A stretch of 64,000 nt of DNA from Anaerolineales bacterium (GTDB lineage: Bacteria; Chloroflexota; Anaerolineae; Anaerolineales; UBA11579): assembly GCA_035458505.1 (NCBI GenBank), contig DATHZS010000073.1:31165-95164 (forward strand), written 5' to 3'. This document shows positions 45,037-64,000 of the stretch, piece after piece; positions within the stretch are counted from its first letter, which is position 1; the number at the start of each line of letters is the position of its first letter. The translations under genes were made by a program, and so were the position numbers. Below the pieces are notes generated by a model. The model saw only the letters and a program-made list of their open reading frames with translations. It ran no database searches and had not been told where the DNA came from.

Positions 45037-45055
45037 TTTTTCCTCTCTGGGGCTA

Positions 45056-47050: not shown

Positions 47051-47110
47051 GGCATCCCTCAGCGAATACAGTATCGACCATCATGATCGTCTGACTTTCT
47101 CTGAATGTCC

Positions 47111-47146
47111 GAAAGCAGGGATACTGAATTTGGTATCCCTGCTTTC
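47111..47146 (-). other. Perfect 14-bp intercistronic hairpin (no U-tract)
   Basis: GAAAGCAGGGATAC-TGAATTTG-GTATCCCTGCTTTC, in the 152-nt gap between the MttB paralog 2 stop and the hydantoinase-like paralog 2 start. Confidence 0.5.
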
Positions 47147-47202
47147 CCTGTCCTATTGCAGTCGTCCGCTTTGGTCATACTCGGACAATTTTTTAGAGCA
47201 GA

Positions 47203-48705: not shown

Positions 48706-48748
48706 AAGGTCATCTCCTATAGCATTTTCAATCACAGTCACCCTGCGG

Positions 48749-49456
48749 CTAGCGCAGGAAGGCTTCCTGGGTTAGTGTGCCACCAGGTGGCACCACCAGG
48801 AACTCGCTGTCTAATTGATCTAAGTTTGCCGCGACTTCGACAAGCCGCCGGACATACTGATCTGAACCAAGGATTTCTTCATACACCATTCCCCATCGCT
48901 CACAATACGCAGCAACCTCTTTCGCACTTGGGCGATAATTGAAAAGGTCAGCTTCCTGATGAGCGATGAAGGCTAATCGTTTGTAATTCTGGTATTGAGT
49001 ATCCATGATCCATTCAGCCTCTTCAGGACCATATTTCTCACTGATCTCATGGTACTCTTTCAACGGGTTGCTGCCGGATTCTAACCAGCCTTTGGTCAGG
49101 TAGTAGGTCCCCGGCTCACTGGTGAACTCCTGCATGTAGCGTGAATAGGAACCCAACAAAATCGCGATGCAATCATCTGTTCTGGGGATCAGCAAAGTAT
49201 GGTTTCTCGCTTTGATCCCGTTTAACCCGTTGCCGCATAACCCATAACCCAACACGATCAGACTCGGAGTATCGATCTCATCGATTCTGCTCTGGACTGT
49301 GAAAGCCAGCTTCGCCGGAACCCGGTGCAAGCCGTAGTCCAGGAAAGTGATCTGAGAAGTCATTTCTTTCGGCAAAAAGTGGTCGATCAACCCCTCAAAC
49401 ACTTTGCACGAGATCACTACTACCGGTAATTTATCGTGAGAAGTCATGGATGGCAT
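48749..49456 (-). CDS. DUF1638 domain protein
   Basis: VVVISCKVFEGLIDHFLP...ITFLDYGLHRVPAKL...LIVLGYGLCGNGL.G......LLIPRTDDCIAILLGS matches the DUF1638 pattern commonly found beside corrinoid methyltransferase genes. The start is ATG 49456 or 49447. Confidence 0.55.
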   Translation of the reverse strand: MPSMTSHDKLPVVVISCKVFEGLIDHFLPKEMTSQITFLDYGLHRVPAKLAFTVQSRIDEIDTPSLIVLGYGLCGNGLNGIKARNHTLLIPRTDDCIAILLGSYSRYMQEFTSEPGTYYLTKGWLESGSNPLKEYHEISEKYGPEEAEWIMDTQYQNYKRLAFIAHQEADLFNYRPSAKEVAAYCERWGMVYEEILGSDQYVRRLVEVAANLDQLDSEFLVVPPGGTLTQEAFLR

Positions 49457-49475
49457 CCAAAATCCCTGGTTTGGT

Positions 49476-50117
49476 TTAGGATTTCCCGAGAAGGGTTCTT
49501 GCCAATTCGGGGCCAGAGACAGCATTGGAGCCATAGCCATCTGCACCGATCCGCTGTGAAAACTCTTCATCCACGGGAGCTCCGCCCACAATCACCTTGA
49601 CTTTATCTCTCAGTCCGGCCTCTTCGATAGCTTTGATCGTATAGCCCATCGCTCGCATGGTGGTTGTCAGCATCGCAGACATCCCCACAATATCGGGTTG
49701 ATGCTCCTTGATCGCCTGGACAAACACTTCAGGGTCGACATTAAAGCCCAGGTCGATTACCTCAAAGCCAGAACCTTCACACATCATCCCCACCAGGTTT
49801 TTACCAATGTCATGCAGGTCGCCTTTTACCGTACCGAGCAAGATGGTGCCTACCCGGTCTGCTCCACTTTCAGCCAATAAGGGGCGCAGGATTTCCTGCC
49901 CGGCATGCATGGCCTCAGCAGACATCAGTACCTCGGGCACAAACATGTCGCCGCGTTTAAACCTGGCGCTTACTTCAGCCATCCCAACAACCAGGCCTTT
50001 ATTCAGGATCTCATTGGCAGAAAGTCCATCCTCCAGGGCTTTTTTGGTCAGTGCTTCGGCTTTTTCGGCATCTCCTTCTAAAACACATGTCGAAAGTTGT
50101 TCAAAAATTTCACTCAT
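49476..50117 (-). CDS. Corrinoid (cobalamin-binding) protein, MtbC/MttC/MtgC-like, copy 1
   Basis: N-terminal helical cap domain and a Rossmann B12-binding domain with DxHxxG (GTVKGDLHDIGKNLVGMMCEGSGFEVIDLG), about 213 aa. Confidence 0.85.
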   Translation of the reverse strand: MSEIFEQLSTCVLEGDAEKAEALTKKALEDGLSANEILNKGLVVGMAEVSARFKRGDMFVPEVLMSAEAMHAGQEILRPLLAESGADRVGTILLGTVKGDLHDIGKNLVGMMCEGSGFEVIDLGFNVDPEVFVQAIKEHQPDIVGMSAMLTTTMRAMGYTIKAIEEAGLRDKVKVIVGGAPVDEEFSQRIGADGYGSNAVSGPELARTLLGKS

Positions 50118-50133
50118 TTTCTTGGTCTCCTCG

Positions 50134-51594
50134 CTATTTATCCTTCACCCGATCTTCTGCCGCTTCCAAGACTTCCCGGATCACTTTCTCGGTCTCAGGT
50201 TTAATCGGAGATGGCTGATGAGTAGACAGAATTTCGTGCACCCGGCTGACGACCCGATCTCGCATGGGTTGTTTGCCCATCATCTCCCATTCTTCATAAT
50301 TTTTTCGGTCACACAGGTTCGGATACCAGAACTCAGTCTTATAATGGTTCCGGGTGTGCTGTTCTCGCAAGTAGTGCCCGTTGGGGCCAACATTGTTGAT
50401 GACCTCAACGGCCAGGGTATCTTCATTGACCTCGATACCGCGTGTAATTCTGCGGGAATAGCCGATCGATTCATCCATCATCGCCAATTGGAATACAGAA
50501 CCGGTCATTCCGCTCTCTGTATAGCCGACATCGTGGGTCAGGTCTCCTCCCGTCAGGGCAGAGAAGAATACAGACAAAGACCCCTCGATCACAGCCTGTT
50601 CATCCAGGCACTTCGAATCTGTGCAGCCACCAGTTTGCCACAGCGGCAGACCAACATAATGTGCCAATTCGGTCAGGCCTGCCATGAATAAAGACAACTC
50701 AGGCGCACCGTAGGACAAGATCATATTGCTCATGTCCATCACAGAGAGCACTCCGCCCATAATATATGGTAGTCCAGGCTGAATGGCCTGAGCGATTGTC
50801 AGCCCCATCCAGGACTCCGCAGCGGCCTGAATAATGATCCCAGCTCCTGTCACTGGGGCAGTTCCACCGGCAATGGGGCAAGGGGTAAAGATGAGTGGGA
50901 CTCGATGCCGAGCTGCAAATACCAGCTTATTCAGCGCATCCTGTGTGCTGACCAGCGGCGAGAGTGGTTCACAGTAGTGGACGTAATTCGGTCGGCGCTC
51001 GAATGCTTCTTGCCCGCCGGCCTCTGCCACAGCAATCTTGTGAATATCCAGCGAATCGTCATAATCGTATGACCAGGCTACGATGGGTTTGCTCGTATTG
51101 GGGAACATACCGGCAAATTCATAAGTCGCGCCAAGTTCGTGGTGGACATCGTTTACCGTACCCAGTGATTCACAAAAATCGATGTTGGGCAAAGCATCCA
51201 CCACCTTTGCCACGGTCGGGACATCGCTTTTTACATAGGGGCGCCGTTCCAGGGTGTCAACGTCAATGAAGTTTGGGCATGTCGGCCCTGGGCCAAAATG
51301 AGCCCGGCCAGGTCCTATATGAATATCGTGTTTCGGATTGCCGTCACGCGAGAATACCGTAAAGCTGCGTGGTGCCATGGACAAAGATTTCTTGACCAGG
51401 TACTGTGGGATTCGAACTCGAATGCCATCGACCCAAGCACCGGCTTTTTTCAGTATTTCTCTCGATTCTTCATGGTGAACATCCAGCCCAGTATATTCCA
51501 GCACATGAAAAACGCCATCTGCCAATTCCTGGAGTTGGTCGTCACTCAACATGCGGAACCTGACACCGGAGTTTACCCGATAGTTGGTTCTCAT
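50134..51594 (-). CDS. MttB-family methyltransferase, non-Pyl, paralog 3
   Basis: SDDQLQELADGVFHVLEYTGL and VGPNGHYLREQHTRNHYKTEFWYPNLCDR. 486 aa, uninterrupted. Confidence 0.75.
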   Translation of the reverse strand: MRTNYRVNSGVRFRMLSDDQLQELADGVFHVLEYTGLDVHHEESREILKKAGAWVDGIRVRIPQYLVKKSLSMAPRSFTVFSRDGNPKHDIHIGPGRAHFGPGPTCPNFIDVDTLERRPYVKSDVPTVAKVVDALPNIDFCESLGTVNDVHHELGATYEFAGMFPNTSKPIVAWSYDYDDSLDIHKIAVAEAGGQEAFERRPNYVHYCEPLSPLVSTQDALNKLVFAARHRVPLIFTPCPIAGGTAPVTGAGIIIQAAAESWMGLTIAQAIQPGLPYIMGGVLSVMDMSNMILSYGAPELSLFMAGLTELAHYVGLPLWQTGGCTDSKCLDEQAVIEGSLSVFFSALTGGDLTHDVGYTESGMTGSVFQLAMMDESIGYSRRITRGIEVNEDTLAVEVINNVGPNGHYLREQHTRNHYKTEFWYPNLCDRKNYEEWEMMGKQPMRDRVVSRVHEILSTHQPSPIKPETEKVIREVLEAAEDRVKDK

Positions 51595-51626
51595 AAACTT
51601 TTATCCTTTCTCGTCCAGTGGTCTAA

Positions 51627-52259
51627 TCAACTAACGAACTTGGTTGCCATTTCAGCAGCGGCTGCAGCATTGGATGCATAGCCATCTGCGCCAATCGTAT
51701 CTGCAAAATCTTTGGTCACCGGTGCACCGCCAACCATGATCTTCACCTTACCCCGTAATCCTGCTTCTTCCAATGCTTTGATCGTGCTCTCCATCGTACG
51801 CATGGTTGTTGTCAGCAAGGCGGACATGCCAACAATATCCGGATTGTGTTCCTTTACGGCCTCAACAAACGCTTCGGGGGCGATGTCTTTACCCAGATCC
51901 ACGACCTCAAAACCTGCGCCTTCGCACATCATTCCCACCAGATTCTTCCCGATATCGTGCAGGTCACCTTTGACAGTGCCGAGGATCACCTTCCCGACCA
52001 TCTTAACTCCGCTTTCCGAAAGGATCGGTTTCAGGATCTCCATAGAAGCGCTCATCGTCTTGGCAGAACGAAGCACTTCAGGCACAAACATATTCCCGGC
52101 TCTGAATTCTGCGCCAACATGATCCATGCCCGGCATTAAGCCCTGATCCAGAACGTCCTTGGCGGAGATCCCTTCCGCCAGCGCTTGCTGGGTCAGGTCT
52201 TTTATGTCATTCAGGTTTCCCTCAATAACACATGACGTCATCTTTGATAAAACGCTCAT
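51627..52259 (-). CDS. Corrinoid (cobalamin-binding) protein, copy 2
   Basis: GTVKGDLHDIGKNLVGMMCEGAGFEVVDLG. It is collinear with copy 1 throughout. Confidence 0.85.
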   Translation of the reverse strand: MSVLSKMTSCVIEGNLNDIKDLTQQALAEGISAKDVLDQGLMPGMDHVGAEFRAGNMFVPEVLRSAKTMSASMEILKPILSESGVKMVGKVILGTVKGDLHDIGKNLVGMMCEGAGFEVVDLGKDIAPEAFVEAVKEHNPDIVGMSALLTTTMRTMESTIKALEEAGLRGKVKIMVGGAPVTKDFADTIGADGYASNAAAAAEMATKFVS

Positions 52260-52280
52260 TTCTTATCTCCTTGTGTTAGT

Positions 52281-52922
52281 TTATACTAAATGCTCTTTAA
52301 TATTTTGCTGAAAGTTTGAAATGTGGGTTCGAATAGCTTTCTCAGCGCGCTGAGAATCACCAGCCTTGATCGCTGACACAATATCCACATGTTCACGGAT
52401 TCCTATCTCAATCAATTTCATCGTCCGCAACCCGTAGTACCAGATGCGTTGGGACATGAAGTAGTATCTCTTGAGGTCAGCTTGCAGATATTGGTTTTGG
52501 CTTGCTTCATAGCTTAAAAAATGAAACCCTCTATCGAGGTCCATCACCTCGTAGGGGGTTTGCAAACTGTTCAGATTTTGTTCGTCTACCATCGCCTCCA
52601 GCTGAGCGATCTGCTCTGGGGTGGCCCTGTTCGCAGCCAAACGTATCACCAATGCTTCCAATTCCATCCGCACTTCGTAAATATGGTTGATGTCCCTGAT
52701 CTCAATTGGCGTGACAAAGATTCCCCGTCGGGGGCTTACCGTTACAAATCGCTCCACCTGCAAGCGCTTGAGTGCTTCCCTGATCGGGGTCCGTCCAAGG
52801 CCAAGGGAATCCATCAGGACAGGTTCCTGGATCAACGAGCCTGGCTCCATCTCCGCCCGGATAATTTTCTCCAAGATCAGTTTATAAGCTCTATCAGCAT
52901 CCGTTAAGCTTGCTGTTTGCAT
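52281..52922 (-). CDS. GntR family transcriptional regulator (FCD subfamily), copy 2
   Basis: Winged HTH region (MEPGSLIQEPVLMDSLGLGRTPIREALKRLQVERFVTV) followed by a helical FCD domain. The start is ATG 52922; the track has a TTG at 52943. Confidence 0.75.
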   Translation of the reverse strand: MQTASLTDADRAYKLILEKIIRAEMEPGSLIQEPVLMDSLGLGRTPIREALKRLQVERFVTVSPRRGIFVTPIEIRDINHIYEVRMELEALVIRLAANRATPEQIAQLEAMVDEQNLNSLQTPYEVMDLDRGFHFLSYEASQNQYLQADLKRYYFMSQRIWYYGLRTMKLIEIGIREHVDIVSAIKAGDSQRAEKAIRTHISNFQQNIKEHLV

Positions 52923-52961
52923 ACTATCTCTGCCTTTTTCCAAAACGGTTTATTTCGATAA

Positions 52962-53834
52962 TCATCCCTCGTCATCAGCTTTTCGTTTTCGATAAGCTTG
53001 AATCCAATTCATTCCAAATTCATCCCTCCCCATGGACAGATCTGAAGCCAAAACAGCTGTGCTGATCTCCCTGACAAGGGGATTGGTGATTGGGCAGGTC
53101 ATTCCGGCATAGATTGCCAGGGCGATGAAGGTTGCATTGATGTATTTCCGGTCGGGCATGCCAAAGGAGATGTTGCTGGCACCCATCGTGATGTTCACCC
53201 CAAATTCTTTGACCACCATTCCAATGGTATCCAGGGCAATCTTACCCGCATTGCTGTCGGCACCCATCGTCAGGGCCAGTGGATCGATGATCACATCTTC
53301 GGGTCCAATTCCGAGTTTACCGGCTCGCTCGATGATCTTCGCGGCGACCTTCAAACGCTGCTCAGCTGTCTCGGGAATACCATCATCATCCATACACAGG
53401 CCAATCACGGCAGCCCCGTATTCTTTTGCCAGAGGGAGAACAGATGACAGTGATTTCTCCTCCCCATTTGTGGAATTGATCAACGCTTTGCCCTCATAAA
53501 TTGAAAGTGCTTCCTTCAAAGCAATCGGATCGGCAGTGTCAATACACAGCGGGATATCTGTCGTCTCCATCACAATCTGCATCACCTGTTTGAGCAGCGC
53601 CGGTTCATCTGCACCGGGAACGCCCGCATTCACGTCCAGCACTTTGGCTCCCGCAGCAACCTGGGAGGTGGCATCTTTTCTGACGATATCGAAATCGCCA
53701 GCCTGAAGTGCTGCCAGCACCAGTTTGCGGCCCGTCGGATTGATCCGCTCTCCGATGATAACTGTGGGGTTTCCCCGTTGAATCTCAACGGTTTGAGATT
53801 TTGATCTCAGAATAGTGGTTAGGTCTTTTGCCAT
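52962..53834 (-). CDS. Methyltetrahydrofolate:corrinoid methyltransferase (pterin-binding, DHPS-like barrel; MtgA/AcsE/MetH-pterin-domain-like)
   Basis: IIGERINPTGRK, VLDVNAG, PLCIDT, LINS and GASNISFG are the pterin-binding-domain hallmarks. Confidence 0.75.
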   Translation of the reverse strand: MAKDLTTILRSKSQTVEIQRGNPTVIIGERINPTGRKLVLAALQAGDFDIVRKDATSQVAAGAKVLDVNAGVPGADEPALLKQVMQIVMETTDIPLCIDTADPIALKEALSIYEGKALINSTNGEEKSLSSVLPLAKEYGAAVIGLCMDDDGIPETAEQRLKVAAKIIERAGKLGIGPEDVIIDPLALTMGADSNAGKIALDTIGMVVKEFGVNITMGASNISFGMPDRKYINATFIALAIYAGMTCPITNPLVREISTAVLASDLSMGRDEFGMNWIQAYRKRKADDEG

Positions 53835-55814: not shown

Positions 55815-57056
55815 TCAGAGTGCCTCCAGAGCCTTGTTGAGGTCGCGGATGATATCTTCCACGTTCTCCAACCCCACCGATAACCGGATCAAGCCATCAT
55901 CAATTCCAGCTGATTGACGTTCTTCAGGAGTCATGTGTTCATGGGTGATCGTCGGCGGGTGCATGCAAATCGTCCGGCTGGTGCCAAACGTGACGGCATG
56001 CACGATGAGCTCAAAATGATCCATGACCGCGGCAGCCCCAGACATTCCACCAGGGACAATGAAAGACAACAATCCGCTGCCTGCCTTCATCTGTCGCGCG
56101 GCCAGCTCATGTTGGGGGTGATTGGCCAATCCGGGGTAATTGACATGCTGCACCTTGGGATGTTGATGGAGGAACTCAGCGACCTGCAATGCGTTGCTGC
56201 TGTGCCTTTCCATCCTTAAGGATAGGGTTTCAAGATACTGAAGGGTGAGCCAGGCTTCAAACGGCTGCATAATTGCCCCAATGAATTCGGTCGTATTCCA
56301 TCGGATGTCTTCAACCAGGGCTTCAGGCCCCACCACTGCTCCGCCAAGGACACTCGCATTCCCGCTGAGGAACTTGGTCAGCGACAGCAAAACAATATCT
56401 GCCCCCAGGTCCATCGGGGTCTGTAAAGCTGCAGTTGCTGTCGTATTATCCACCATTAAAGGGACACCGCGGGCATGCGCAATTTCTGCCACCACAGAAA
56501 TATCAGTAACAAATAAGGTAGGGTTGCTGGGAGTTTCCACCCACACAAGCCGGGTTTTGTCATCAATCGCCTGATCCCAGGCCTCAGGTTGAGCCGGATC
56601 AGCCACAAAGCGACTCGTTACCCCACAGCGCTCCGGCAAGATGGCGGCGGCTTGCTTATATCCTTCCCCGAAGATATTCAACGAGGTGACGATGTTATCT
56701 CCTGGCCGGGCGATCGTGGAGATCAGGCTGAAGAGGGCCTGAGAGCCCGATCCAGCTGAAACCGCTCCTTCTCCCCCTTCCAGGGCGGCCAGGCGTTCCT
56801 CCAGGATGCTGACGGTTGGAGTTTTACTGCGGCCGTAAATATAATCCGGAAACTTCTCAAAGTGCTCATAGGGATACGTCATGGACTGGACGATTGGCGG
56901 GACAAAAGCCCGGAACTGGTCCACATTTTTCAATGGGTGAAATCCCGCATGCAGTGCTCTGGTATCAAAGCCCAGGTGTTTATCCCTGGGTTTCGTTTGC
57001 TGCTCCTGGGGGGAATATTTCCATGGGTCGCGCATAAAGAAAGGTTTTTTTTTCAT
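55815..57056 (-). CDS. Cys/Met-metabolism PLP-dependent enzyme (O-acetylhomoserine sulfhydrylase / methionine gamma-lyase family)
   Basis: Family layout, with PLP-lysine region VLLSLTKFLSGN and C-terminal LIRLSVGLENVEDIIRDL. Confidence 0.7.
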   Translation of the reverse strand: MKKKPFFMRDPWKYSPQEQQTKPRDKHLGFDTRALHAGFHPLKNVDQFRAFVPPIVQSMTYPYEHFEKFPDYIYGRSKTPTVSILEERLAALEGGEGAVSAGSGSQALFSLISTIARPGDNIVTSLNIFGEGYKQAAAILPERCGVTSRFVADPAQPEAWDQAIDDKTRLVWVETPSNPTLFVTDISVVAEIAHARGVPLMVDNTTATAALQTPMDLGADIVLLSLTKFLSGNASVLGGAVVGPEALVEDIRWNTTEFIGAIMQPFEAWLTLQYLETLSLRMERHSSNALQVAEFLHQHPKVQHVNYPGLANHPQHELAARQMKAGSGLLSFIVPGGMSGAAAVMDHFELIVHAVTFGTSRTICMHPPTITHEHMTPEERQSAGIDDGLIRLSVGLENVEDIIRDLNKALEAL

Positions 57057-57115
57057 TTTTTCCTCAACTCATCACCGTTAGCTATCTCTACCGGGTTTAT
57101 CCTGCGAAGTCATGT

Positions 57116-58555
57116 TTACGCCTGGTTCTCGGCTTTCAGCACATACTCTCGCAAGGCTGTTTTGATTTCCTGTGTCACCGCTTCAACACTATGGTTCGCA
57201 AGGATCTCATCCACTTGTGCTGCGGCCCGCTCTGCCATGGTCGTGGAGCCAGCATCCTGCCAGGCAGAGTAAATCTGCCGGTCAGCCAATTTTGAATAAT
57301 GCGCATCCCTAAAATGGCGGAAGGTATGGTCATGGGAAAGGTAATCACCCTCCGGGCCTAATTCCTCAACAACATCCAGGGCAAGAGTCTCCTCATCCAC
57401 CACGACACCCCGCGTTGCTGCCCTTATCCACCCGAGCAGGTCATTGGAAATCGCGATCAGTTGGAGTGAGCCCTGCAAGCCGGCATCCATGAACCCAAGA
57501 TCGTGGATGATATTCGCGCCATTCAGGAGCGAGAACGTCAGGCCCAGCGCACATTCTGCACCAGCTTGCTGGTCGAGGGCTTTCGAGTCGGTGGAACCGC
57601 CTAACCCAAAAACCGGAAGCTGGTAATACCTCCCCATAGATGCCGCCACACCCTGCTCATCGGGCAGGCAGTAATTCCCGACCATGGTTTGCAGGTTATA
57701 GGGTCCGCCGTTCCAGCCTGGCACGGCAATCGGAGAACCTTCTCGCACCAACTGAGAGAGCACCATGCCCAACAAAGTTCCGGCATTCATGGTCGCCATA
57801 CACCCGGCAGTGGTCGCGGGAGAGTTGACACCCGCGGCGTTCAGAGGAATGTATAACTGAGGCAATCCTTTCTCAGCAAAATAAATGCATTTTTGCAACG
57901 AGTCTTTATTCGCCACCATCCCGCTGGTCACGTTGATATAGCACACCGCAAACGGCCGATCCCGGAAGGCCTCTGCCCCACCAGCCGCGATCTCAGCCAT
58001 CTCCACACATGCCACGGTAGTCTCAAAATCAGGCGTCACAAACACGATCGGTTTCCTGGATCTGGTTAACATGACCTCCATCTGGTACAGGGGATAGACT
58101 GGATCGCTGACATCGGACGGCAAGAACGCTGACATAATGAAATCCACCTCAGGTAAGGCATCCATAACTGTGATGGCATCGATCACATCCTGCAGGACAG
58201 CTCTCCGCCGTTCGTTCGTCCGGTGATCCAGTACATACAGGCAGTCAGATCCTCCTCCAAAGTACGAATTATGCCCCCAGGCCCGGATGGCGGGTGTCCC
58301 CTGCCGATCATACAAGAGGAGCTTTTTAGGAGCAGACGCCAGTGCTTGATTGACCAGGTATTCCGGAATGCGCACCCGCTGACCTTTTGCCTTCGCTCCG
58401 GCCTTGATCAGGATCTGCCGGGCGTTTTCATCATGGACTTCTAAGCCAATCGTTTCCAAAACTTCCACACTGGCCATATGGAGTTTCTCGCACTCCTGCT
58501 GACCAAGGCGGGAATAATGAGCACTGGTCATATTTCTGCCATGAGTTTCGATCAT
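57116..58555 (-). CDS. MttB-family methyltransferase, non-Pyl, paralog 4
   Basis: GQQECEKLHMASVEVLETIGL and LGPEGDYLSHDHTFRHFRDAHYSKLADRQ. AGGA lies 8 nt upstream of ATG 58555. Confidence 0.75.
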   Translation of the reverse strand: MIETHGRNMTSAHYSRLGQQECEKLHMASVEVLETIGLEVHDENARQILIKAGAKAKGQRVRIPEYLVNQALASAPKKLLLYDRQGTPAIRAWGHNSYFGGGSDCLYVLDHRTNERRRAVLQDVIDAITVMDALPEVDFIMSAFLPSDVSDPVYPLYQMEVMLTRSRKPIVFVTPDFETTVACVEMAEIAAGGAEAFRDRPFAVCYINVTSGMVANKDSLQKCIYFAEKGLPQLYIPLNAAGVNSPATTAGCMATMNAGTLLGMVLSQLVREGSPIAVPGWNGGPYNLQTMVGNYCLPDEQGVAASMGRYYQLPVFGLGGSTDSKALDQQAGAECALGLTFSLLNGANIIHDLGFMDAGLQGSLQLIAISNDLLGWIRAATRGVVVDEETLALDVVEELGPEGDYLSHDHTFRHFRDAHYSKLADRQIYSAWQDAGSTTMAERAAAQVDEILANHSVEAVTQEIKTALREYVLKAENQA

Positions 58556-58587
58556 TTTTTATCCTTTCAGGAAATTCTTTGTGTTTT

Positions 58588-58688
58588 TGATATATCAATT
58601 ATATAAATAAATATATTTTATAGTGATTATAGTATTTCATCAAGATTTTTTATCATATCAACAGGTGACTTTTTTATATCATATGATA
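58588..58688. promoter_or_regulatory. Divergent AT-rich control region with palindromes TGATATATCA and TATCATATGATA (candidate GntR operators)
   Basis: 10-bp palindrome at 58588-58597 and 12-bp perfect palindrome at 58677-58688, in the 145-bp gap between divergent MttB paralog 4 and GntR copy 3. Confidence 0.35.
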
Positions 58689-58700: not shown

Positions 58701-59354
58701 ATGTCCGAGAATACAAAAAACAAGATCTATCAAGAAGTTAGGCGCTCGATCATTATGGGGCAGCACAAAACTGGCACCAGGCTGAACATCGAGGAGATCG
58801 CCAAACGGCACCAAACCAGCGTCACCCCCGTGCGGGATGCACTACAAATGCTCAGCCAGGAAGGGTTGGTCACAATCAGACCGCGCGCTGGCTACTTCAT
58901 CACGAGAATCACACTAAAAGAACTGCGCGATATGTTTGAACTTCGCAATATCCTGGAATTAGCTGCAATTGAACGTTCTGTCGAGCAAATCAGTGAGGAG
59001 CAGATCGCCCAACTACGAAAAATCCATGCCGGGTATACCGGTGATGATGACGAATCTTACGAGCGCTACACCGATGAAAACCAGCGTTTTCATTGTCTGC
59101 TTGCTGAAGCATCAGGCAACCAGGAACTGGCACAACTTATCGGACATTTAATGGATCGCCTGGCCCGTTTTATGGTCTTGCGGCATGCTGGCAAGACTAT
59201 GGAAGCGTCTCATACCCGGATCCTGGAAGCGCTAGAACAACGCGACCGCGATGCCGCCCGTCAGGCACTCATTGAGGATATCGAAGGCACTCAACAGGCG
59301 GCCCTGGATAAAATCATCCAAACCGAGGCCGCCACCTGGCACCTGGAAATTTAA
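58701..59354 (+). CDS. GntR family transcriptional regulator (FCD subfamily), copy 3
   Basis: Winged HTH region (IYQEVRRSIIMGQHKTGTRLNIEEIAKRHQTSVTPVRDALQMLSQEGLVTI) followed by an FCD-like domain. The start is set to ATG 58701. Confidence 0.75.
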   Translation: MSENTKNKIYQEVRRSIIMGQHKTGTRLNIEEIAKRHQTSVTPVRDALQMLSQEGLVTIRPRAGYFITRITLKELRDMFELRNILELAAIERSVEQISEEQIAQLRKIHAGYTGDDDESYERYTDENQRFHCLLAEASGNQELAQLIGHLMDRLARFMVLRHAGKTMEASHTRILEALEQRDRDAARQALIEDIEGTQQAALDKIIQTEAATWHLEI

Positions 59355-59379
59355 TCACAAAATTAAGAGGAGAACGTCT

Positions 59380-60819
59380 GTGAATACCGTAAATGCACTC
59401 GCTTTTCTTGGACCGCAATTTTCGATTTTATCCGATAGCCAACTCGACGATATTCACATGGCAGCGCTCGAAGTGCTCCGGCGCACCGGGATCCGATTTT
59501 TCCATCAGGGTGCTTTGGAGATGTTGAAAGAGGCTGGGGCGTTCATTGCCGACGGGAATCTGGTTAAGATGTCGAGCTCCATGGTAGAAGATGCGATTGC
59601 CACGGTTCCCAGCCGGGTGATTATGTGCGATCGTGAAGGAGAACCAGCAGTGCGGCTGGAAGGCAGACGGGTGAACTTTGGCACCGGCTCTGACTGCATT
59701 AACCTGCTCGATCCGGAGACCGGCGAGCATCGGAAATTCACAACAAAAGATATCCTCGATGCGTATCACCTGTGTGATGCTTTGCCAAACATTCATTTTG
59801 TGATGTCGGTGGGCATCCCCTCAGACGTGCCGCCTGAAACTGCCTATGATGTGCAGATGGCGGCCATGCTGGAACACACCAGCAAACCGATTGTTTTCGT
59901 TGCGGATGACCTCGCCAGCTGCCAGAGGGCAATTGACATGGCTGCCGCAGCAGCTGGTGGGTACGAAGCCCTGCGGGAACAACAGCATATTTTGCTGTAT
60001 TCTGAGCCCAGCTCCCCTTTGCAGCAATCCGAAACAGCTATCGATAAATTGTTGCTCATGGCAGAATACCAGCTGCCAGTTGTCCACTCTCCCGCCCCCC
60101 TGATGGGCGGCACAGGACCAATCACGATGGCCAGCGGTTTGGCGATGTCCGTGGCAGAAATTCTCAGCAGTGTGGTTGTGCACCAGCTTAAGCAGCCCGG
60201 CGCGCCGTACATCTTTGGCGCTGGTCTCCACCACATGGATATGCTAGCCACCCAAATCTGCTATGCATCTCCAGAATTTCAATTGACCAAAGCTGCGATT
60301 GCCCAGTTAGGGCGCATGTACGGCATGCCCACCTGGGGCTATGCCGGCTGCAGCGATGCCAAGGTGATGGACGAACAAGCCGCATTGGAAAGTTTATTGT
60401 CAGTCATGATGGCAAAATTCAGCGGCGGCAACCTGATCCATGACGTCGGGTATATGGAGAGCGGCCTCACTTGCTCATACGAGATGATTGCCCTGACAGA
60501 CGAACTGGTCGCCCTGACAGACCACATGATGAAAGGCATTGAGGTAACCGAAGACTCTTTGATGCTGGATGAGATCCATAAAGTCGGGCCGGGTGGTCAT
60601 TTCCTGAACACTGACCAGACCCTGAACCGTTTCCGTGATTTTTGGTACCCGGATCTGATAGACCGCAGCATCCGCCCCACCTGGCTGAATAATGGAGCCA
60701 CCACACTTGGTCAGCGGTTGAATGCAAAAGTCAAGCAAATCATTAAAGAACACCAACCCGCACCTCTGCCCACAGATAAAAAGAAAAAAATCCAGGAAAT
60801 CCTCGCCCAGGCATCCTAA
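59380..60819 (+). CDS. MttB-family methyltransferase, non-Pyl, paralog 5
   Basis: SDSQLDDIHMAALEVLRRTGI and VGPGGHFLNTDQTLNRFRDFWYPDLIDRS. The start is GTG 59380 with AAGAGGAG 7 nt upstream; the track ORF would overlap the GntR gene. Confidence 0.75.
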   Translation: MNTVNALAFLGPQFSILSDSQLDDIHMAALEVLRRTGIRFFHQGALEMLKEAGAFIADGNLVKMSSSMVEDAIATVPSRVIMCDREGEPAVRLEGRRVNFGTGSDCINLLDPETGEHRKFTTKDILDAYHLCDALPNIHFVMSVGIPSDVPPETAYDVQMAAMLEHTSKPIVFVADDLASCQRAIDMAAAAAGGYEALREQQHILLYSEPSSPLQQSETAIDKLLLMAEYQLPVVHSPAPLMGGTGPITMASGLAMSVAEILSSVVVHQLKQPGAPYIFGAGLHHMDMLATQICYASPEFQLTKAAIAQLGRMYGMPTWGYAGCSDAKVMDEQAALESLLSVMMAKFSGGNLIHDVGYMESGLTCSYEMIALTDELVALTDHMMKGIEVTEDSLMLDEIHKVGPGGHFLNTDQTLNRFRDFWYPDLIDRSIRPTWLNNGATTLGQRLNAKVKQIIKEHQPAPLPTDKKKKIQEILAQAS

Positions 60820-60820
60820 C

Positions 60821-63094
60821 GTGAAATCAGCTTCCGAAATCCGCCCAATTGGGGGAGAGTCAAAACGCCTCGACGCGCACGAAAAAGTGACCGGGGAAGC
60901 CCGGTATGTTGAGGATATCTCGATGCCTGGCTTATGCTATGCCAGGGTATTTCGCTGCCCTCACCATCATGCAAGGCTGATTTCTCTCGATACCCAAAAA
61001 GCATGCGCACAAGCTGGGGTGATTCGGGTCGTCACCGCGGAGGATATTCCGGGAGAAAATGGATTTTCAGAATACAGCAAAGAAGAGCCTCTGCTGGTCT
61101 CCGTTGGAATGGTCGCAAAAATGAAGGGAGCGCCCATTGCACTGGTTGCGGCCGATTCTCCTGAACATGCACGCGCAGGGGCACAGGCAATCAGGGCTGA
61201 TTTTGAGGTTTTACCGCATGTATTTGAAGCTGATGCCGCCTTGTTAGAGGATGGAATGCAAATCTACCCAACTGGGAATATCCTCAATACCTATTCCGTC
61301 GCCCATGGAGATCCCAAGCAAGCTTTTTCCGACTCAGATATCACGATTAAAGCCGAATATCACACCTCCTATCAGGAGCACTCTGCATTGGAACGCGAAT
61401 CAGCATTAGGGTATCTTGATCAGGATGGGAGGGTAACCGTCCTGTCTGGCACCCACGAACCGCATTGGCAACAACACTGGATCGCCAGGACTTTGCAGGT
61501 TGATGCATCACAGGTGCGTTTCATCACCCCCCATATTGGCGGGTCGTTTGGCGGCAAGCAAGACCCCTGGCCGCATATCGCGGTGGGCCTATTGGCCTAC
61601 CTGATAAAAAAACCAGTCCGCCTGATTTTTTCCAGGCCTGAATCTTTCCTGGCATCTCCCAAACGACATCCCTATACGATGGCATACAAAGTCGGGACAA
61701 CCCAGACGGGTATCCTGACCGGTCTTCAGGTGCAAATCAATTGTAATACTGGGGCATATGATGCGGATGGTTTCCACATCCCGGAATATGCGACGGTCGC
61801 TGCCGGCGGCGCTTACCGCTGGCAAGGAGCCGACATCCGGGCACAGAGCATTTACACCAATGGTCCAAAATGCGGGCAATTTCGCGGTTTTGGCACACCC
61901 CAATCAACCTTTGCCCTGGAATGTGCACTGGACGAGCTTGCGCAAAAATTGGAAAAAGATCCAATTAAATTCCGTCTGAAAAACATCATCACCCAAGGGG
62001 AAAACACTTTCCTTGGCTACCCTATCGCCGAATCCCTGGGTTACAGGCAGGTTTTGGAAACACTCGATGCCCCCTATCGACAATTCCAACATGAGGCGAT
62101 GGAGTTCAACCACCAGAACCAGGTGGGTCCGTACCGCAAAGGAGTCGGGGTTGCCGGGATGTGGTACCGTTTCGGAAAATCGGGTTCCCTGCGGGTTGAA
62201 GCGCATGCAGAACTCGCACCAGACGGTCATTTCGTGATCTACTGTTCTGTCCCGGATTATGGCCAGGGCATCAGCACAGTGATGGCTCAGCTCGGTGCCC
62301 AAACACTGGGAGTTTCCAGGGATTTGGTCGAGCTGGTCAATGCAGATACCGGTTTAACACCAGACAGCGGTGTCCAGGGGGCCTCCAGGGCAACCTACTG
62401 GGTTGGCAATGCAGTTGTCCGGGCTGCTAAAACCCTGAAAGAGAATATCTTTGGAAATGTGGCTGAACTATTGGATTGCCATCCAGCTGATCTGTTGATT
62501 TCAGGTAAGCAGATCCTTTCCTCCAGCCAGCCAAACAATCGACTCTCGCTGGAGGAAGTGGCCAGCCAATTTGAGGCATTATCCATACCGCGCAGGGTGG
62601 CAGAATTTTTTGATGCATCTGCCCTCTTTCCACAGGAAACACGCCCCAGATACACCCCGCAATTCGTCACCGGGGCACATTTGGCTGAGGTGTTGGTGGA
62701 TCTTCAAACCGGGGAAGTATGCGTCACACGCTATGTGGCGGTGCATGATGTTGGGAAGGTGATCAACTTACCCGGGGCTGAAGGACAGGTTGAAGGTGCC
62801 GTGATCATGGGGATTGGCGCTGCGCTCAAAGAGGAGTACCTGCCGGATGTTACAACCGGCTTCAGTAACTATATCCTGCCTATGGCCAATGAAATACCAG
62901 AGATAAAAACCATATTTGTCGAAGTACCCAGTTTGCACGGCCCTTTAGGTGCCAAAGGTCTGGGAGAAACCGCGATGCTGCCATCCACACCAGCGGTGAT
63001 CAATGGCGTCTCACGAGCCATCGGAGTACGCATCCGCCAGATTCCCGCAACGCCGGAACGAATCGTTCGGGCGATACTGAACATAGACTCATAA
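60821..63094 (+). CDS. Xanthine dehydrogenase/aldehyde oxidase family molybdopterin-binding large subunit
   Basis: N-terminal a/b-hammerhead (IGGESKRLDAHEKVTGEARYVEDI), GGSFGGK, and C-terminal GAKGLGETAMLPSTPAVINGV containing the catalytic Glu. The start is GTG 60821, 2 nt after the upstream stop. Confidence 0.75.
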   Translation: MKSASEIRPIGGESKRLDAHEKVTGEARYVEDISMPGLCYARVFRCPHHHARLISLDTQKACAQAGVIRVVTAEDIPGENGFSEYSKEEPLLVSVGMVAKMKGAPIALVAADSPEHARAGAQAIRADFEVLPHVFEADAALLEDGMQIYPTGNILNTYSVAHGDPKQAFSDSDITIKAEYHTSYQEHSALERESALGYLDQDGRVTVLSGTHEPHWQQHWIARTLQVDASQVRFITPHIGGSFGGKQDPWPHIAVGLLAYLIKKPVRLIFSRPESFLASPKRHPYTMAYKVGTTQTGILTGLQVQINCNTGAYDADGFHIPEYATVAAGGAYRWQGADIRAQSIYTNGPKCGQFRGFGTPQSTFALECALDELAQKLEKDPIKFRLKNIITQGENTFLGYPIAESLGYRQVLETLDAPYRQFQHEAMEFNHQNQVGPYRKGVGVAGMWYRFGKSGSLRVEAHAELAPDGHFVIYCSVPDYGQGISTVMAQLGAQTLGVSRDLVELVNADTGLTPDSGVQGASRATYWVGNAVVRAAKTLKENIFGNVAELLDCHPADLLISGKQILSSSQPNNRLSLEEVASQFEALSIPRRVAEFFDASALFPQETRPRYTPQFVTGAHLAEVLVDLQTGEVCVTRYVAVHDVGKVINLPGAEGQVEGAVIMGIGAALKEEYLPDVTTGFSNYILPMANEIPEIKTIFVEVPSLHGPLGAKGLGETAMLPSTPAVINGVSRAIGVRIRQIPATPERIVRAILNIDS

Positions 63095-63158
63095 ACGATA
63101 CGATTGGATCTTAGCGATAGGTTCAAGCACATTGGTTTATTTTCGAGGAGGAAAAAAT

Positions 63159-64000
63159 ATGAGACCCCAAATATCTATCCCAACACTGAAACCCAGACTG
63201 CAGATGGTATCTGATGAACAAGTGCGGGAAATTCATTATTCCACACTACAGATCCTGAGCCAGACTGGCATGGAAATGCAGGACCCCCGCGGGCGAGAGC
63301 TGCTGCTCGAGGCCGGCGCGTGGGAATCAAACGGCCGGATTAAGATCCCGGAAAATCTGGTGACCGATTCGATCGACAAAGCCCCTTCCCGAATTCCCAT
63401 GTACGACCGTTTGGGTAATCTGACGATGCCGCTCGAACTTGGCAAGGTCTTCTTTGGCATGGGTTCAGATACGACCTTCACAATCGATCTTGAAACCGGG
63501 AAACGCAGAATGGCGGTTGCAGATGATGTGGAAAACTTTGCCCGACTGGGAGACGCATTGGAGAACATCGACTTCATCATGTCCATGGGAAGCCCCTCGG
63601 ATGTGCCAGCCGAAAACCTCTACCTGCATTCCTTCATCCGAATGCTGCGCGGCTCCGTAAAACCGAATGTATACACCGCAGAAAACCGCAGGGACATGGA
63701 GGATATGTACCGGATTGCCGCTGCAGTGGTGGGAGGAGAACAGACCCTGCGGGAAAAGCCGATCATGCTGCATTACGCCGAACCGATCTCGCCACTGTTC
63801 ATCATTGAAGAATCCCTCCAGAAGATTATCTTCTGCGCGGAGAAAGGCATCCCCAGTGCCTATATCCCATCCCCCAACACCGGCGGAGGTGGGCCAATCA
63901 CCGTAGCTGGTGCAGTCGCATTAGGCAATGCCGAATGCCTGATCGGCTTGATCCTCTCTCAACTCGTGAGGCCGAACGCCCCATACCTGTATGGGATGAA
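63159..64000 (+). CDS. MttB-family methyltransferase, non-Pyl so far, paralog 6 (3' end beyond window)
   Basis: ATG 63159 follows GAGGAGG. My manual translation (MRPQISIPTLKPRLQMVSDEQVREIHYSTLQILSQTGMEM...NIDFIMSMGSPSDV...AEPISPL...) is open to the window end. It is absent from the ORF track because no stop is reached. Confidence 0.7.
   Translation, partial: MRPQISIPTLKPRLQMVSDEQVREIHYSTLQILSQTGMEMQDPRGRELLLEAGAWESNGRIKIPENLVTDSIDKAPSRIPMYDRLGNLTMPLELGKVFFGMGSDTTFTIDLETGKRRMAVADDVENFARLGDALENIDFIMSMGSPSDVPAENLYLHSFIRMLRGSVKPNVYTAENRRDMEDMYRIAAAVVGGEQTLREKPIMLHYAEPISPLFIIEESLQKIIFCAEKGIPSAYIPSPNTGGGGPITVAGAVALGNAECLIGLILSQLVRPNAPYLYGM

What the first reader, a model, noticed from the sequence alone, without database searches (positions are those of the whole stretch)
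58701..64000. GntR - MttB - molybdopterin hydroxylase large subunit - MttB operon, with no Fe-S or FAD subunit seen
A 757-aa XDH/aldehyde-oxidase-family MoCo subunit (60821-63094) starts 2 nt after the stop of MttB paralog 5. MttB paralog 6 follows 64 nt later. All of these lie downstream of a dedicated GntR regulator. The 2Fe-2S and FAD subunits that normally accompany this family are not adjacent on the visible side. Coupling an N-demethylase to a Mo-hydroxylase suggests the substrate could be an N-methylated N-heterocycle whose demethylated ring is then hydroxylated. One example is trigonelline to nicotinate to 6-hydroxynicotinate; methylated purines are another. This substrate idea is speculation from gene context only.
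Basis: inference. Interest (0 to 1): 0.65.

Follow-up and report, generated by a model that had tools for sequence, protein, structure and literature searches.

The report
Methyltransferase-flanked molybdenum hydroxylase lacking partner subunits
A molybdenum hydroxylase catalytic subunit sits between two corrinoid-dependent N-demethylase genes with no electron-transfer subunits nearby; this is one lineage's stripped-down version of a previously undescribed demethylase-hydroxylase gene module found widely in Chloroflexota.

Summary
GntR/FCD (58701-59354), MttB (59380-60819), a 757-aa xanthine-oxidase-family Mo subunit (60821-63094) and a second MttB (63159 onward) form one plus-strand operon. 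The public contig shows that it ends at a hairpin after the second MttB. No 2Fe-2S or FAD subunit lies in the 64-kb window or in the 10 kb beyond it.

The organism is an Anaerolineales MAG. In 80 species-level Chloroflexota genomes, relatives at 53-76% identity have an MttB gene immediately adjacent in 50 and in the locus in 68. Forty-two carry an N-terminal 2x[2Fe-2S] fusion, and 35 of those have an adjacent FAD subunit. Thirty-eight, including the window's well-supported clade, have neither next to the Mo gene.

Catalytic and cofactor-binding residues are invariant across all clades, so the gene is under selection. Three unfused relatives have a separate FAD-FeS protein in the same operon. 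They share the window protein's sequence signature (Y/F318, I685, M688). A FAD-FeS partner encoded elsewhere is therefore the likeliest answer, but I could not test it.

The pocket does not match xanthine or nicotinate dehydrogenases. Histidine-utilisation genes accompany 17 of the 80 relatives, which points to an imidazole-type substrate rather than trigonelline or purines. I found no paper describing this module.

The parts
58587..58598 (.). Perfect 12-bp palindrome TTGATATATCAA in the divergent promoter region. It is a candidate operator of the GntR/FCD regulator.
   Evidence: The sequence was read. The motif TTGATATATCA(A/G)TT is present upstream of gntR in nine of the ten related loci inspected, and L014 has CTGATATATCAATT. 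Binding was not tested.
58701..59354 (+). GntR-family regulator with an FCD ligand-binding domain (217 aa). First gene of the operon.
   Evidence: Pfam GntR 55.9 bits and FCD 77.3 bits. The orthologue is in the same position in related genomes.
59380..60819 (+). MttB5, a non-pyrrolysine MttB-superfamily corrinoid methyltransferase (479 aa, GTG start).
   Evidence: Pfam MTTB 321.8 bits. TIGR02369 scores 407 bits, below its 525-bit cut-off. The nearest solved structure is glycine betaine methyltransferase MtgB (2qne), at 221 bits. The ORF is uninterrupted.
60821..63094 (+). Xanthine-oxidase-family molybdenum cofactor-binding (large) subunit, 757 aa, with no Fe-S domain.
   Evidence: Three Pfam domains. 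Catalytic Glu716 and the GGSFGGK and QFRGFG motifs are conserved. The start lies 1 nt after the MttB5 stop.
63159..64000 (+). MttB6, a second non-pyrrolysine MttB-superfamily methyltransferase. It is cut by the window end and is 483 aa in the full contig. A hairpin terminator follows outside the window.
   Evidence: Pfam MTTB 150.8 bits on the 280 aa visible. The complete gene and the hairpin AAAAGACCTTGCA...TGCAAGGTCTTTTT are in L001.
55815..58555 (-). Divergently transcribed pair: MttB4 (57116-58555) and a Cys/Met-metabolism PLP enzyme resembling methionine gamma-lyase (55815-57056). It shares the promoter region with gntR.
   Evidence: Pfam MTTB 274 bits and Cys_Met_Meta_PP 395 bits. The same divergent pair occurs in most related loci.
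49476..53834 (-). Methyl-transfer accessory genes that the MttB proteins need. They are two corrinoid proteins (49476-50117, 51627-52259), another MttB (50134-51594), a GntR regulator (52281-52943) and a pterin-binding methyl-corrinoid:tetrahydrofolate methyltransferase (52962-53834).
   Evidence: Pfam B12-binding and B12-binding_2, MTTB and Pterin_bind. NCBIfam PRK07535 scores 305.8 bits, above its cut-off.
42784..44373 (-). RACo-type reductive activase of corrinoid proteins, with an N-terminal 2Fe-2S ferredoxin domain.
   Evidence: Pfam RACo_C_ter 213 bits, Raco_middle 126.9 bits and Fer2 37.4 bits.

Best explanation
The gene encodes a functional catalytic subunit of a Chloroflexota-specific subfamily of xanthine-oxidase-type molybdenum hydroxylases. 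This subfamily is built into operons with non-pyrrolysine MttB methyltransferases.

**Proposed mechanism**
- A GntR/FCD repressor controls two divergent operons from a shared promoter region that carries a conserved palindrome.
- The MttB proteins remove N-methyl groups from an imported methylated nitrogen compound and pass them to corrinoid proteins. The methyl groups then go to tetrahydrofolate through the neighbouring pterin methyltransferase.
- The Mo subunit hydroxylates the heteroaromatic ring of the same compound or of its demethylated product.

**Two architectures in the subfamily**
- Type 1 is a [2x(2Fe-2S)-MoCo] fusion plus a separate FAD subunit.
- Type 2 is a bare MoCo subunit that pairs with a separate FAD-FeS fusion protein.
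- The window carries type 2. Its FAD-FeS partner is not in the operon and is presumed to be encoded elsewhere in the genome.

**Shown versus inferred**
- Shown: gene order, conservation of that order, domain content and residue conservation.
- Inferred: co-transcription, the partner acting in trans, and the substrate. The substrate is most likely an imidazole or histidine-derived ring.
For: **Operon and coupling**
- The four genes lie on one strand with gaps of 25, 1 and 64 nt, followed by a hairpin.
- MttB stop and MoCo start overlap or abut (-4, -1 or +1 nt) in 13 of 16 loci of the window's clade.

**Module is general**
- Among 80 species-representative genomes, 68 have an MttB gene in the locus and 50 have one immediately adjacent.
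- The typical type 1 layout is MAAL-MttB-[FeS-MoCo]-FAD-MttB.

**The subunit is functional**
- 208 of 230 columns conserved in both fused clades are retained in the window's clade.
- His212, Gln247, Asp248, Tyr323, Gln353, Arg355, WYRF448-451, Gln482 and catalytic Glu716 are invariant or nearly so in every clade.

**Type 2 exists**
- L043, L074 and L097 have a FAD_binding_5 + CO_deh_flav_C + Fer2 + Fer2_2 protein in the same gene cluster as an unfused MoCo, separated by MttB genes.
- These three unfused proteins carry Tyr318, Ile685 and Met688. The window protein has Phe318, Ile685 and Met688. Fused forms have Gln318, Tyr685 and Thr688.

**Substrate lead**
- HutC, MIO-motif histidine ammonia-lyase and urocanase lie beside pocket-identical relatives in 17 of 80 genomes.
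- The central domain is closest to nicotinate dehydrogenase NdhL, an N-heterocycle hydroxylase, at 158 bits and 36% identity.

**Methyl-transfer machinery**
- Corrinoid proteins, a pterin methyltransferase, RACo and MTHFR are all in the window.
Against: - No FAD-FeS gene was found for this genome. About 74 kb around the gene is empty of one. Only 3 of 38 unfused loci show one within 10 kb.
- In L043 the FAD-FeS gene might instead belong to a paralogous Mo subunit in the same locus.
- Eight to ten positions change or relax convergently in unfused clades. This could equally mean that a partner contact was lost outright.
- The window locus itself has no Hut genes, so the imidazole lead rests on orthologues at 54-60% identity.
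- His in place of the usual Gln at the Mo=O contact position is unusual, and its effect is unknown.
- Trees are neighbour-joining only. ORF calls in the related loci are my own approximations.
Confidence: 0.5

Rival explanations
1. The enzyme is a truly Fe-S- and FAD-independent xanthine-oxidase-family enzyme. In this reading the bare Mo subunit works alone or in a complex with the flanking MttB proteins. It would hand electrons directly to some other acceptor, or catalyse a non-redox step.
For: - No partner gene lies within about 74 kb.
- The same is true across 17 genomes of the window's clade.
- Fe-S and FAD loss appears to have happened at least three times independently. In 100 bootstrap replicates the window's clade and the Hut-linked clade are each monophyletic in 100, and all unfused forms together in 0.
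- Convergent changes or relaxation occur at positions 147, 286, 316, 318, 670, 685, 688 and 690.
- L037, near the window's clade, retains only the first of the two Fe-S domains.
- Translational coupling with MttB is tight.
Against: - To my knowledge every characterised member of this family uses two 2Fe-2S clusters to drain electrons from Mo.
- Three unfused relatives with the same signature residues do have a FAD-FeS gene in the operon.
- 90% of fused-clade-conserved columns are retained, which argues against wholesale loss of a large interface.
- MttB proteins have no redox cofactor.
Confidence: 0.2
2. MttB demethylates trigonelline to nicotinate, or demethylates a methylated purine. The Mo enzyme is then a nicotinate or xanthine dehydrogenase.
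For: - E. barkeri nicotinate dehydrogenase is the best-scoring solved relative when its two chains are summed (249+179 bits). It is also the best match for the central domain (158 bits).
- NCBIfam XdhA models give the highest scores (478 and 462 bits).
- N-methylpyridinium compounds are chemically plausible MttB substrates. This last point is my inference.
Against: - All NCBIfam scores are far below their cut-offs of 780-916 bits.
- Identity to NdhL is only 36% in the best-matching region.
- Pocket positions differ. His212 stands where Gln is usual. Gln247 stands where xanthine dehydrogenase has Glu802 and nicotinate dehydrogenase has Leu. Tyr323 stands where both have Arg.
- No nicotinate-fermentation or purine-degradation genes recur in 80 loci, whereas Hut genes do.
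- No paper links MttB to trigonelline demethylation.
Confidence: 0.1
3. The Mo enzyme is an aldehyde oxidoreductase that produces the MttB substrate. For example, it would oxidise a betaine aldehyde made by the nearby Zn-dependent alcohol dehydrogenase to the carboxylate betaine, which MttB then demethylates.
For: - Desulfovibrio aldehyde oxidoreductase is the second-best full-length solved match (256 bits).
- The fused relatives have the same FeS-MoCo single-chain layout as that enzyme.
- A Zn-ADH gene recurs in about 10 loci, including downstream of this operon.
- Five of the six MttB superfamily members with an assigned substrate act on quaternary amines, and four of these carry a carboxylate (PMC12155760).
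Against: - The central, pocket-forming domain matches nicotinate dehydrogenase much better than aldehyde oxidoreductase (158 versus 98 bits).
- The fused relatives have a FAD subunit, which the Desulfovibrio enzyme lacks.
- Linkage to HutC, HAL and urocanase has no obvious aldehyde logic.
- The window already encodes a conventional NAD-type aldehyde dehydrogenase (4374-5951).
Confidence: 0.1
4. The gene is a decaying remnant. After losing its Fe-S domain and FAD subunit, the Mo subunit would be non-functional.
For: - The electron-transfer modules are missing.
- L037 looks like an intermediate in the loss of the Fe-S domain.
Against: - The ORF is intact in at least 17 species at 60-76% identity, with invariant catalytic and cofactor motifs.
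- The translationally coupled position is conserved.
- There are no frameshifts or premature stops.
Confidence: 0.05

Closest known systems
Eubacterium barkeri nicotinate dehydrogenase (NdhL + NdhM; PDB 3hrd)
   Same: - It belongs to the same xanthine-oxidase-family fold.
- It is the best solved match when the two chains are summed (249+179 bits) and the best match for the central domain (158 bits, 36% identity).
- It comes from an anaerobe and hydroxylates an N-heterocycle.
- The catalytic Glu and the FRGFG and GGxFGGK motifs are shared.
   Different: - Its Mo subunit is split into two chains and works with dedicated Fe-S and FAD subunits encoded alongside.
- Its pocket has Gln, Leu and Arg where this protein has His212, Gln247 and Tyr323.
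- It has no linkage to MttB genes.
Rhodobacter capsulatus-type two-subunit xanthine dehydrogenase (XdhA = Fe-S + FAD; XdhB = MoCo; PDB 1jro)
   Same: It has the same division of labour as proposed here. One bare MoCo subunit pairs with one protein that carries both 2Fe-2S clusters and FAD. The Chloroflexota FAD-FeS proteins in L043, L074 and L097 have all four corresponding Pfam domains.
   Different: - From my own knowledge, the domain order in XdhA is FeS then FAD. In the Chloroflexota proteins it is FAD then FeS.
- The xdhA and xdhB genes are adjacent, whereas here no partner gene is nearby.
- Sequence similarity to XdhB is only 194 bits.
- The purine-binding Glu and Arg are absent.
Desulfovibrio gigas aldehyde oxidoreductase (MOP; PDB 1sij/1vlb)
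   Same: The fused relatives of this protein share the MOP single-chain layout of 2x[2Fe-2S] followed by MoCo. It is the second-best full-length solved match, at 256 bits.
   Different: - From my own knowledge, MOP has no FAD subunit.
- The window protein lacks the Fe-S domain altogether.
- The central domain is less similar to MOP than to NdhL (98 versus 158 bits).
Characterised non-pyrrolysine MttB-superfamily systems (MtgB, MtpB, MtcB, MtyB, MthB) with corrinoid protein, methyl-THF methyltransferase and RACo
   Same: - The flanking genes are MttB-superfamily members without an in-frame stop codon.
- Cognate corrinoid proteins, a pterin methyltransferase and RACo lie in the same island.
- MtgB is the nearest solved structure (221 bits).
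   Different: - None of the six systems with an assigned substrate is described with a molybdenum hydroxylase (PMC12155760; no paper found).
- MttB5 and MttB6 score below the trimethylamine-MttB cut-off, and their substrates are unknown.

Membership tests
Xanthine oxidase / aldehyde oxidase family, Mo-binding large subunit | a/b hammerhead domain plus two molybdopterin cofactor-binding domains | tested here: met
   Pfam Ald_Xan_dh_C 83.6, MoCoBD_1 235.2 and MoCoBD_2 210.8 bits, all above their cut-offs.
Xanthine oxidase / aldehyde oxidase family, Mo-binding large subunit | Catalytic glutamate (bovine Glu1261, D. gigas Glu869) and the cofactor-contact motifs GGxFGxK and FRGFG | tested here: met
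   Glu716 in GAKGLGE aligns with the GASGVGE motif of 1sij. Assigning that Glu to D. gigas Glu869 and bovine Glu1261 rests on my recall of the family numbering. GGSFGGK (240-246) and QFRGFG (353-358) are invariant in all 80 relatives.
Xanthine oxidase / aldehyde oxidase family, Mo-binding large subunit | Gln contacting the Mo=O group (bovine Gln767) | tested here: not met
   His212 aligns with Gln of 4-hydroxybenzoyl-CoA reductase, NdhL and human xanthine oxidoreductase. His is invariant in the whole subfamily, whereas four paralogues have Gln.
Xanthine oxidase / aldehyde oxidase family, holoenzyme | Two 2Fe-2S clusters on a fused domain or an adjacent small subunit | tested here: not met
   No Fer2_2 or Fer2-type small subunit lies in window 1-64000 or in the 10 kb downstream.
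Xanthine oxidase / aldehyde oxidase holoenzyme, dehydrogenase type | FAD-binding medium subunit (FAD_binding_5 + CO_deh_flav_C) | tested here: not met
   It is absent from the window and the downstream flank (same calls). It is present next to 35 of 42 fused relatives.
Xanthine oxidase / aldehyde oxidase family | Binds a molybdopterin cofactor with a sulfido ligand and hydroxylates a substrate using water | not testable with these tools
   This needs metal analysis and enzyme assays.
Xanthine dehydrogenase (purine-specific) | Substrate-binding Glu802 and Arg880 (bovine numbering), and a score above the curated family cut-offs | tested here: not met
   Gln247 and Tyr323 occupy these positions. 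NCBIfam XdhA scores 478 against a cut-off of 780, PRK09970 462 against 916, and PucD 418 against 784.
Nicotinate dehydrogenase (E. barkeri type) | Close sequence relationship and the same pocket residues as NdhL/NdhM | tested here: not met
   Identity is 36% over the best 259 residues. NdhL has Gln, Leu and Arg where this protein has His212, Gln247 and Tyr323. No nicotinate-fermentation genes occur in the related loci.
Non-pyrrolysine MttB superfamily methyltransferase (MttB5, MttB6) | MTTB fold, no in-frame amber codon, and a cognate corrinoid protein, methyl-THF methyltransferase and RACo available | tested here: met
   Pfam MTTB scores 321.8 and 150.8 bits. The ORFs are uninterrupted. Accessory genes lie at 42784-53834. 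Methyl donor specificity was not tested.
GntR family, FadR/FCD subfamily regulator | N-terminal winged-helix GntR domain plus a C-terminal FCD domain | tested here: met
   Pfam GntR covers residues 6-67 and FCD covers residues 77-194. A conserved palindrome lies in its promoter region, but binding was not tested.

The most novel reading that the evidence does not exclude
The bare Mo subunit may be a new kind of xanthine-oxidase-family enzyme that works without any 2Fe-2S or FAD module. It would be physically coupled to the flanking corrinoid-dependent MttB methyltransferases. Demethylation and ring hydroxylation of a methylated imidazole-type compound would then occur in one complex. Candidate substrates are a methylhistidine, hercynine or a thiohistidine. 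Electrons would leave Mo by a route not seen before in this family.
Probability: 0.15. Interest if true: 0.85.

Novelty: new variant of a known kind. Interest (0 to 1): 0.6.

Why it matters
[quoted passage not shown] A gene module that ties several MttB lineages to one conserved molybdenum hydroxylase offers a direct handle on a new substrate class. That module occurs in at least 80 Chloroflexota species. In 17 of them it sits next to histidine-utilisation genes. The likely substrates are methylated N-heterocycles used by abundant, uncultured sediment Anaerolineae.

The family also offers a natural series of architectures: a fused Fe-S domain plus FAD subunit, a separate FAD-FeS protein, and no partner in sight. 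This series can test how xanthine-oxidase-type enzymes exchange or dispense with their electron-transfer modules.

Tried and rejected
1. **Walking along the contig.** I tried to extend past the 10-kb flank with the look-up of encoding contigs, using a protein outside the window.
2. **Searching for the partner.** I searched the protein database with the FAD-FeS protein of L074. It returned at least 8000 hits, the scoring cap, mostly unnamed; the named ones were Chloroflexota. None could be assigned to the window's genome. No hit shared a contig length with any W-clade contig. The search did reveal L097.
3. **AlphaFold2 model.** A model of the Mo subunit built from a 21-sequence alignment gave mean pLDDT 62 and pTM 0.47. 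That is too poor for fold search or interface analysis, so I did not use it.
4. **HutI bypass idea.** I considered that the Mo enzyme replaces HutI by oxidising imidazolone propionate to hydantoin propionate. I looked for hydantoinase or carbamoylase genes next to the Hut-linked relatives and found only unrelated sugar and regulatory genes. The idea remains untested.
5. **Hut genes in the window.** I looked for histidine ammonia-lyase, urocanase and HutC in the window and its closest relatives. None were found.
6. **A new cluster site.** I checked for a clade-specific cysteine pattern that could form a new Fe-S site. Only Cys351 is enriched in unfused forms. It also occurs in some fused ones, so this was rejected.
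7. **RNA elements.** An Rfam scan for a Moco or cobalamin riboswitch near the operon found none.
8. **Literature.** Searches for MttB together with xanthine dehydrogenase, trigonelline, Chloroflexi, ergothioneine or hercynine returned nothing describing this module.
9. **Longer ORF.** The 790-aa ORF starting at 60722 was rejected as the gene start.

Full report
**1. The observation**

| Gene | Coordinates | Evidence |
|---|---|---|
| GntR/FCD regulator | ATG 58701 to 59354 | Pfam GntR 55.9, FCD 77.3 bits |
| MttB5 | GTG 59380 to TAA 60819, 479 aa | MTTB 321.8 bits |
| Xanthine-oxidase-family Mo subunit | GTG 60821 to 63094, 757 aa | Ald_Xan_dh_C 83.6, MoCoBD_1 235.2, MoCoBD_2 210.8 bits |
| MttB6 | ATG 63159, running off the window | MTTB 150.8 bits on the 280 aa visible |

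- The gaps between successive genes are 25, 1 and 64 nt.
- The longer 790-aa ORF from 60722 is not the gene. Homologues align from about residue 8 of the 757-aa form, and the public annotation aa.

**2. What lies beyond the window**

An exact-protein look-up placed the window on a 124-kb contig, JBFFQJ010000001.1 of GCA_041573535.1.

- MttB6 is 483 aa.
- A hairpin, AAAAGACCTTGCA...TGCAAGGTCTTTTT, follows it.
- The next genes are convergent: a CBS-domain protein, an Opp-type ABC transporter with an SBP_bac_5 binding protein, a Zn-dependent alcohol dehydrogenase and another MttB.
- The transcription unit therefore appears to be gntR-mttB5-moco-mttB6.
- No Fer2_2, FAD_binding_5 or CO_deh_flav_C protein occurs in the 10 kb downstream or anywhere in the 64-kb window.

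The rest of the window is a methylotrophy island. It holds:
- four further MttB paralogues;
- two corrinoid proteins;
- a pterin-binding methyltransferase;
- a RACo activase;
- MTHFR.

**3. Relatives and their contexts**

The closest proteins come from Anaerolineales MAGs.

*The window's clade*
- Look-ups of homologues at 60-75% identity show the same MttB-MoCo pair without Fe-S or FAD genes.
- In most of these loci the pair is preceded by GntR. A divergent MttB plus a methionine-gamma-lyase-like PLP enzyme lies on the other side.

*A fused homologue*
- P0049 (920 aa) shares 61% identity and carries an N-terminal Fer2 + Fer2_2 domain.
- Its operon reads MAAL-MttB-[FeS-MoCo]-FAD subunit-MttB.

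*Scan of 185,579 species-representative genomes*

The scan returned 80 loci. All but one are from Chloroflexota. My ORF and BLAST annotation gives:

| Feature | Count |
|---|---|
| Fused FeS-MoCo | 42 of 80 |
| ...with an adjacent FAD subunit | 35 of 42 |
| Unfused MoCo | 38 of 80 |
| ...with an adjacent FAD subunit | 0 of 38 |
| ...with an Fe-S or FAD-FeS gene elsewhere in the locus | 3 of 38 |
| MttB gene present in the locus | 68 of 80 |
| MttB gene immediately adjacent on the same strand | 50 of 80 |

- In the window's clade the MttB stop and MoCo start overlap or abut (-4, -1 or +1 nt) in 13 of 16 loci.
- The adjacent MttB genes belong to several distinct MttB lineages.

**4. Phylogeny of the Fe-S/FAD loss**

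This rests on a neighbour-joining tree with 100 bootstrap replicates.
- The window's clade of 17 sequences is monophyletic in 100 of 100 replicates.
- A second unfused clade, linked to histidine-utilisation genes, is also monophyletic in 100 of 100.
- All unfused forms together are monophyletic in 0 of 100.
- This suggests at least three independent losses.
- One protein near the window's clade, in L037, keeps only the first of the two Fe-S domains.

**5. Is the bare subunit functional?**

- 208 of 230 alignment columns conserved in both fused clades are retained in the window's clade.
- The catalytic Glu716, the GGSFGGK and QFRGFG motifs and a set of likely pocket residues are invariant or nearly so in every clade. 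The pocket set is His212, Gln247, Asp248, Trp250, Tyr313, Asp314, Tyr323, WYRF448-451, Gln482 and Gln519.
- The gene is therefore under purifying selection.
- All 80 proteins probably act on the same or very similar substrate. This makes context evidence from relatives transferable.

**6. Where do the electrons go?**

- Eight to ten positions differ systematically between the two forms. Fused forms have Gln318, Tyr685 and Thr688. Unfused forms have Tyr/Phe318, Ile685 and Met688. Positions 147, 286, 316, 670 and 690 also differ.
- Three unfused relatives (L043, L074, L097) have a protein with FAD_binding_5, CO_deh_flav_C, Fer2 and Fer2_2 domains in the same gene cluster as the bare Mo subunit, separated from it by MttB genes. 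All three carry the unfused signature.
- This defines a second architecture in the subfamily: a bare MoCo subunit plus a FAD-FeS protein. It is comparable in logic to two-subunit bacterial xanthine dehydrogenases.
- The window protein has Phe318, Ile685 and Met688, so it belongs to this second type.
- I therefore think a FAD-FeS partner encoded elsewhere is the likeliest solution (confidence about 0.5).
- I could not test this. The tools did not let me read the rest of the genome.
- An enzyme that truly lacks Fe-S and FAD is not excluded (about 0.15-0.2).

**7. Substrate**

*Curated family models*
- The protein scores below every curated cut-off: XdhA 478 against 780, PucD 418 against 784, and 4-hydroxybenzoyl-CoA reductase 417 against 995.

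*Solved structures*
- E. barkeri nicotinate dehydrogenase is closest once its two chains are summed (249+179 bits).
- It is clearly closest for the central domain (158 bits against 98 and 96 for the next two).
- Identity there is only 36%.

*Pocket residues*

| This protein | Xanthine dehydrogenase | Nicotinate dehydrogenase (NdhL) |
|---|---|---|
| His212 | Gln | Gln |
| Gln247 | Glu802 | Leu |
| Tyr323 | Arg880 | Arg |

Trigonelline/nicotinate and methylpurines are therefore not supported.

*Gene neighbourhood of the 80 relatives*
- Seventeen loci carry at least one Hut gene. Thirteen have a histidine ammonia-lyase, ten have urocanase, and eleven have a HutC-type GntR/UTRA regulator transcribed divergently from the Mo gene.
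- The ammonia-lyases keep the MIO motif ASG or ACG, so they are true histidine ammonia-lyases.
- Other recurrent neighbours are methylaspartate ammonia-lyase, an MmgE/PrpD protein, a Zn-ADH, an S15 peptidase and the Opp-type transporter.

*Reading*
- From my own knowledge, methylaspartate ammonia-lyase fits fermentation of histidine via glutamate.
- This points to a histidine-derived, imidazole-type ring. A methylated histidine or a histidine betaine are candidates.
- This is inference from orthologue context. The window locus itself has no Hut genes.

**8. Regulation**

- A perfect palindrome, TTGATATATCAA, lies at 58587-58598 between gntR and the divergent MttB4 gene.
- The motif TTGATATATCA(A/G)TT is conserved in the same position in nine of the ten related loci inspected; the tenth, L014, has the near-match CTGATATATCAATT.
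- It is a plausible operator for the GntR/FCD protein.

**9. Comparison with what is known**

- Papers retrieved on the MttB superfamily list six members with assigned substrates: trimethylamine, glycine betaine, proline betaine, carnitine, gamma-butyrobetaine and phosphocholine. None of these systems is described with a molybdenum enzyme (PMC12155760).
- Searches combining MttB with xanthine dehydrogenase, trigonelline, Chloroflexi, ergothioneine or hercynine found no description of this module.
- I class it as a new variant of known kinds. It combines a known enzyme family and a known methyltransferase family in an undescribed, conserved pairing, and the window shows its partner-less form.

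**10. Limits**

- The trees are neighbour-joining only.
- ORF calls in the related loci are mine and sometimes extend too far upstream.
- The AlphaFold2 model was too poor to use.
- No experiment or expression data were available.

Noticed in passing
window 35505-35609 (+): This is the only Rfam match in the window. It is a c-di-GMP-II-GAG riboswitch variant (41.4 bits against a gathering score of 40). It lies about 180 nt upstream of an endonuclease/exonuclease/phosphatase-family gene at 35793-37013.
   Followed up: no
window 39271-40758 (+): This MttB paralogue matches the Pfam trimethylamine methyltransferase model far better than the others (669 bits against 274-336). It is nonetheless an uninterrupted 495-aa ORF with no in-frame stop where pyrrolysine would be expected. 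It sits next to an MTHFR gene.
   Followed up: no
window 40769-42754 (-) and 45056-47050 (-): Two proteins of about 660 aa contain only the hydantoinase/oxoprolinase A-type domains. They flank the RACo corrinoid activase and a GntR regulator. Their role in a methyltransferase island is unclear.
   Followed up: no
window 58587-58598, and the same position in L009, L014, L018, L020-L023, L025, L035: The palindrome TTGATATATCA(A/G)TT is conserved in the divergent promoter between gntR and the MttB4/PLP-enzyme operon. It is often followed by a second half-site, TTGATATAT. It is a likely operator.
   Followed up: partly
L037:5832-9344: A relative near the window's clade keeps only the first (plant-type Fer2) Fe-S domain in front of the Mo domains and lacks the second (Fer2_2) domain. 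It may be an intermediate in the loss of the Fe-S module. NuoE-, NuoF- and NuoG-like genes lie a few genes away here, and NuoE-/NuoF-like or NuoF-/NuoG-like genes also lie in L053 and L055 respectively.
   Followed up: partly
L050:8661-13949, L077:13465-18653, L081:17188-22256, L043:1-7101: A paralogous Mo subunit of about 800 aa, with 27-34% identity, sits close to the family gene in several genomes. In L050, L077 and L081 it is followed by a FAD-FeS fusion, a second FAD subunit and a small Fe-S subunit; in L043 a small Fe-S gene precedes it, only the FAD-FeS fusion follows, and no second FAD subunit was detected. In L050, L077 and L081 that is twice the usual complement of electron-transfer modules for one Mo subunit.
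   Followed up: no
L045, L047, L053, L055, L075 (histidine ammonia-lyase genes): About half of the histidine ammonia-lyase neighbours have Ala-Cys-Gly instead of the usual Ala-Ser-Gly at the MIO-forming triad.
   Followed up: no
L080:3782-6155 and L090:168-1274: Octopine/nopaline dehydrogenase-family genes lie upstream of the Mo gene, near the Opp-type transporter genes, in two genomes. This hints that some versions of the module handle opine-like conjugates.
   Followed up: no
L001:13822-13858 (about 640 nt beyond the window end): A 13-bp-stem hairpin with A-rich and T-rich flanks lies between the convergent MttB6 and CBS genes. It looks like a bidirectional terminator. The consensus scan missed it because the loop is longer than 8 nt.
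   Followed up: partly
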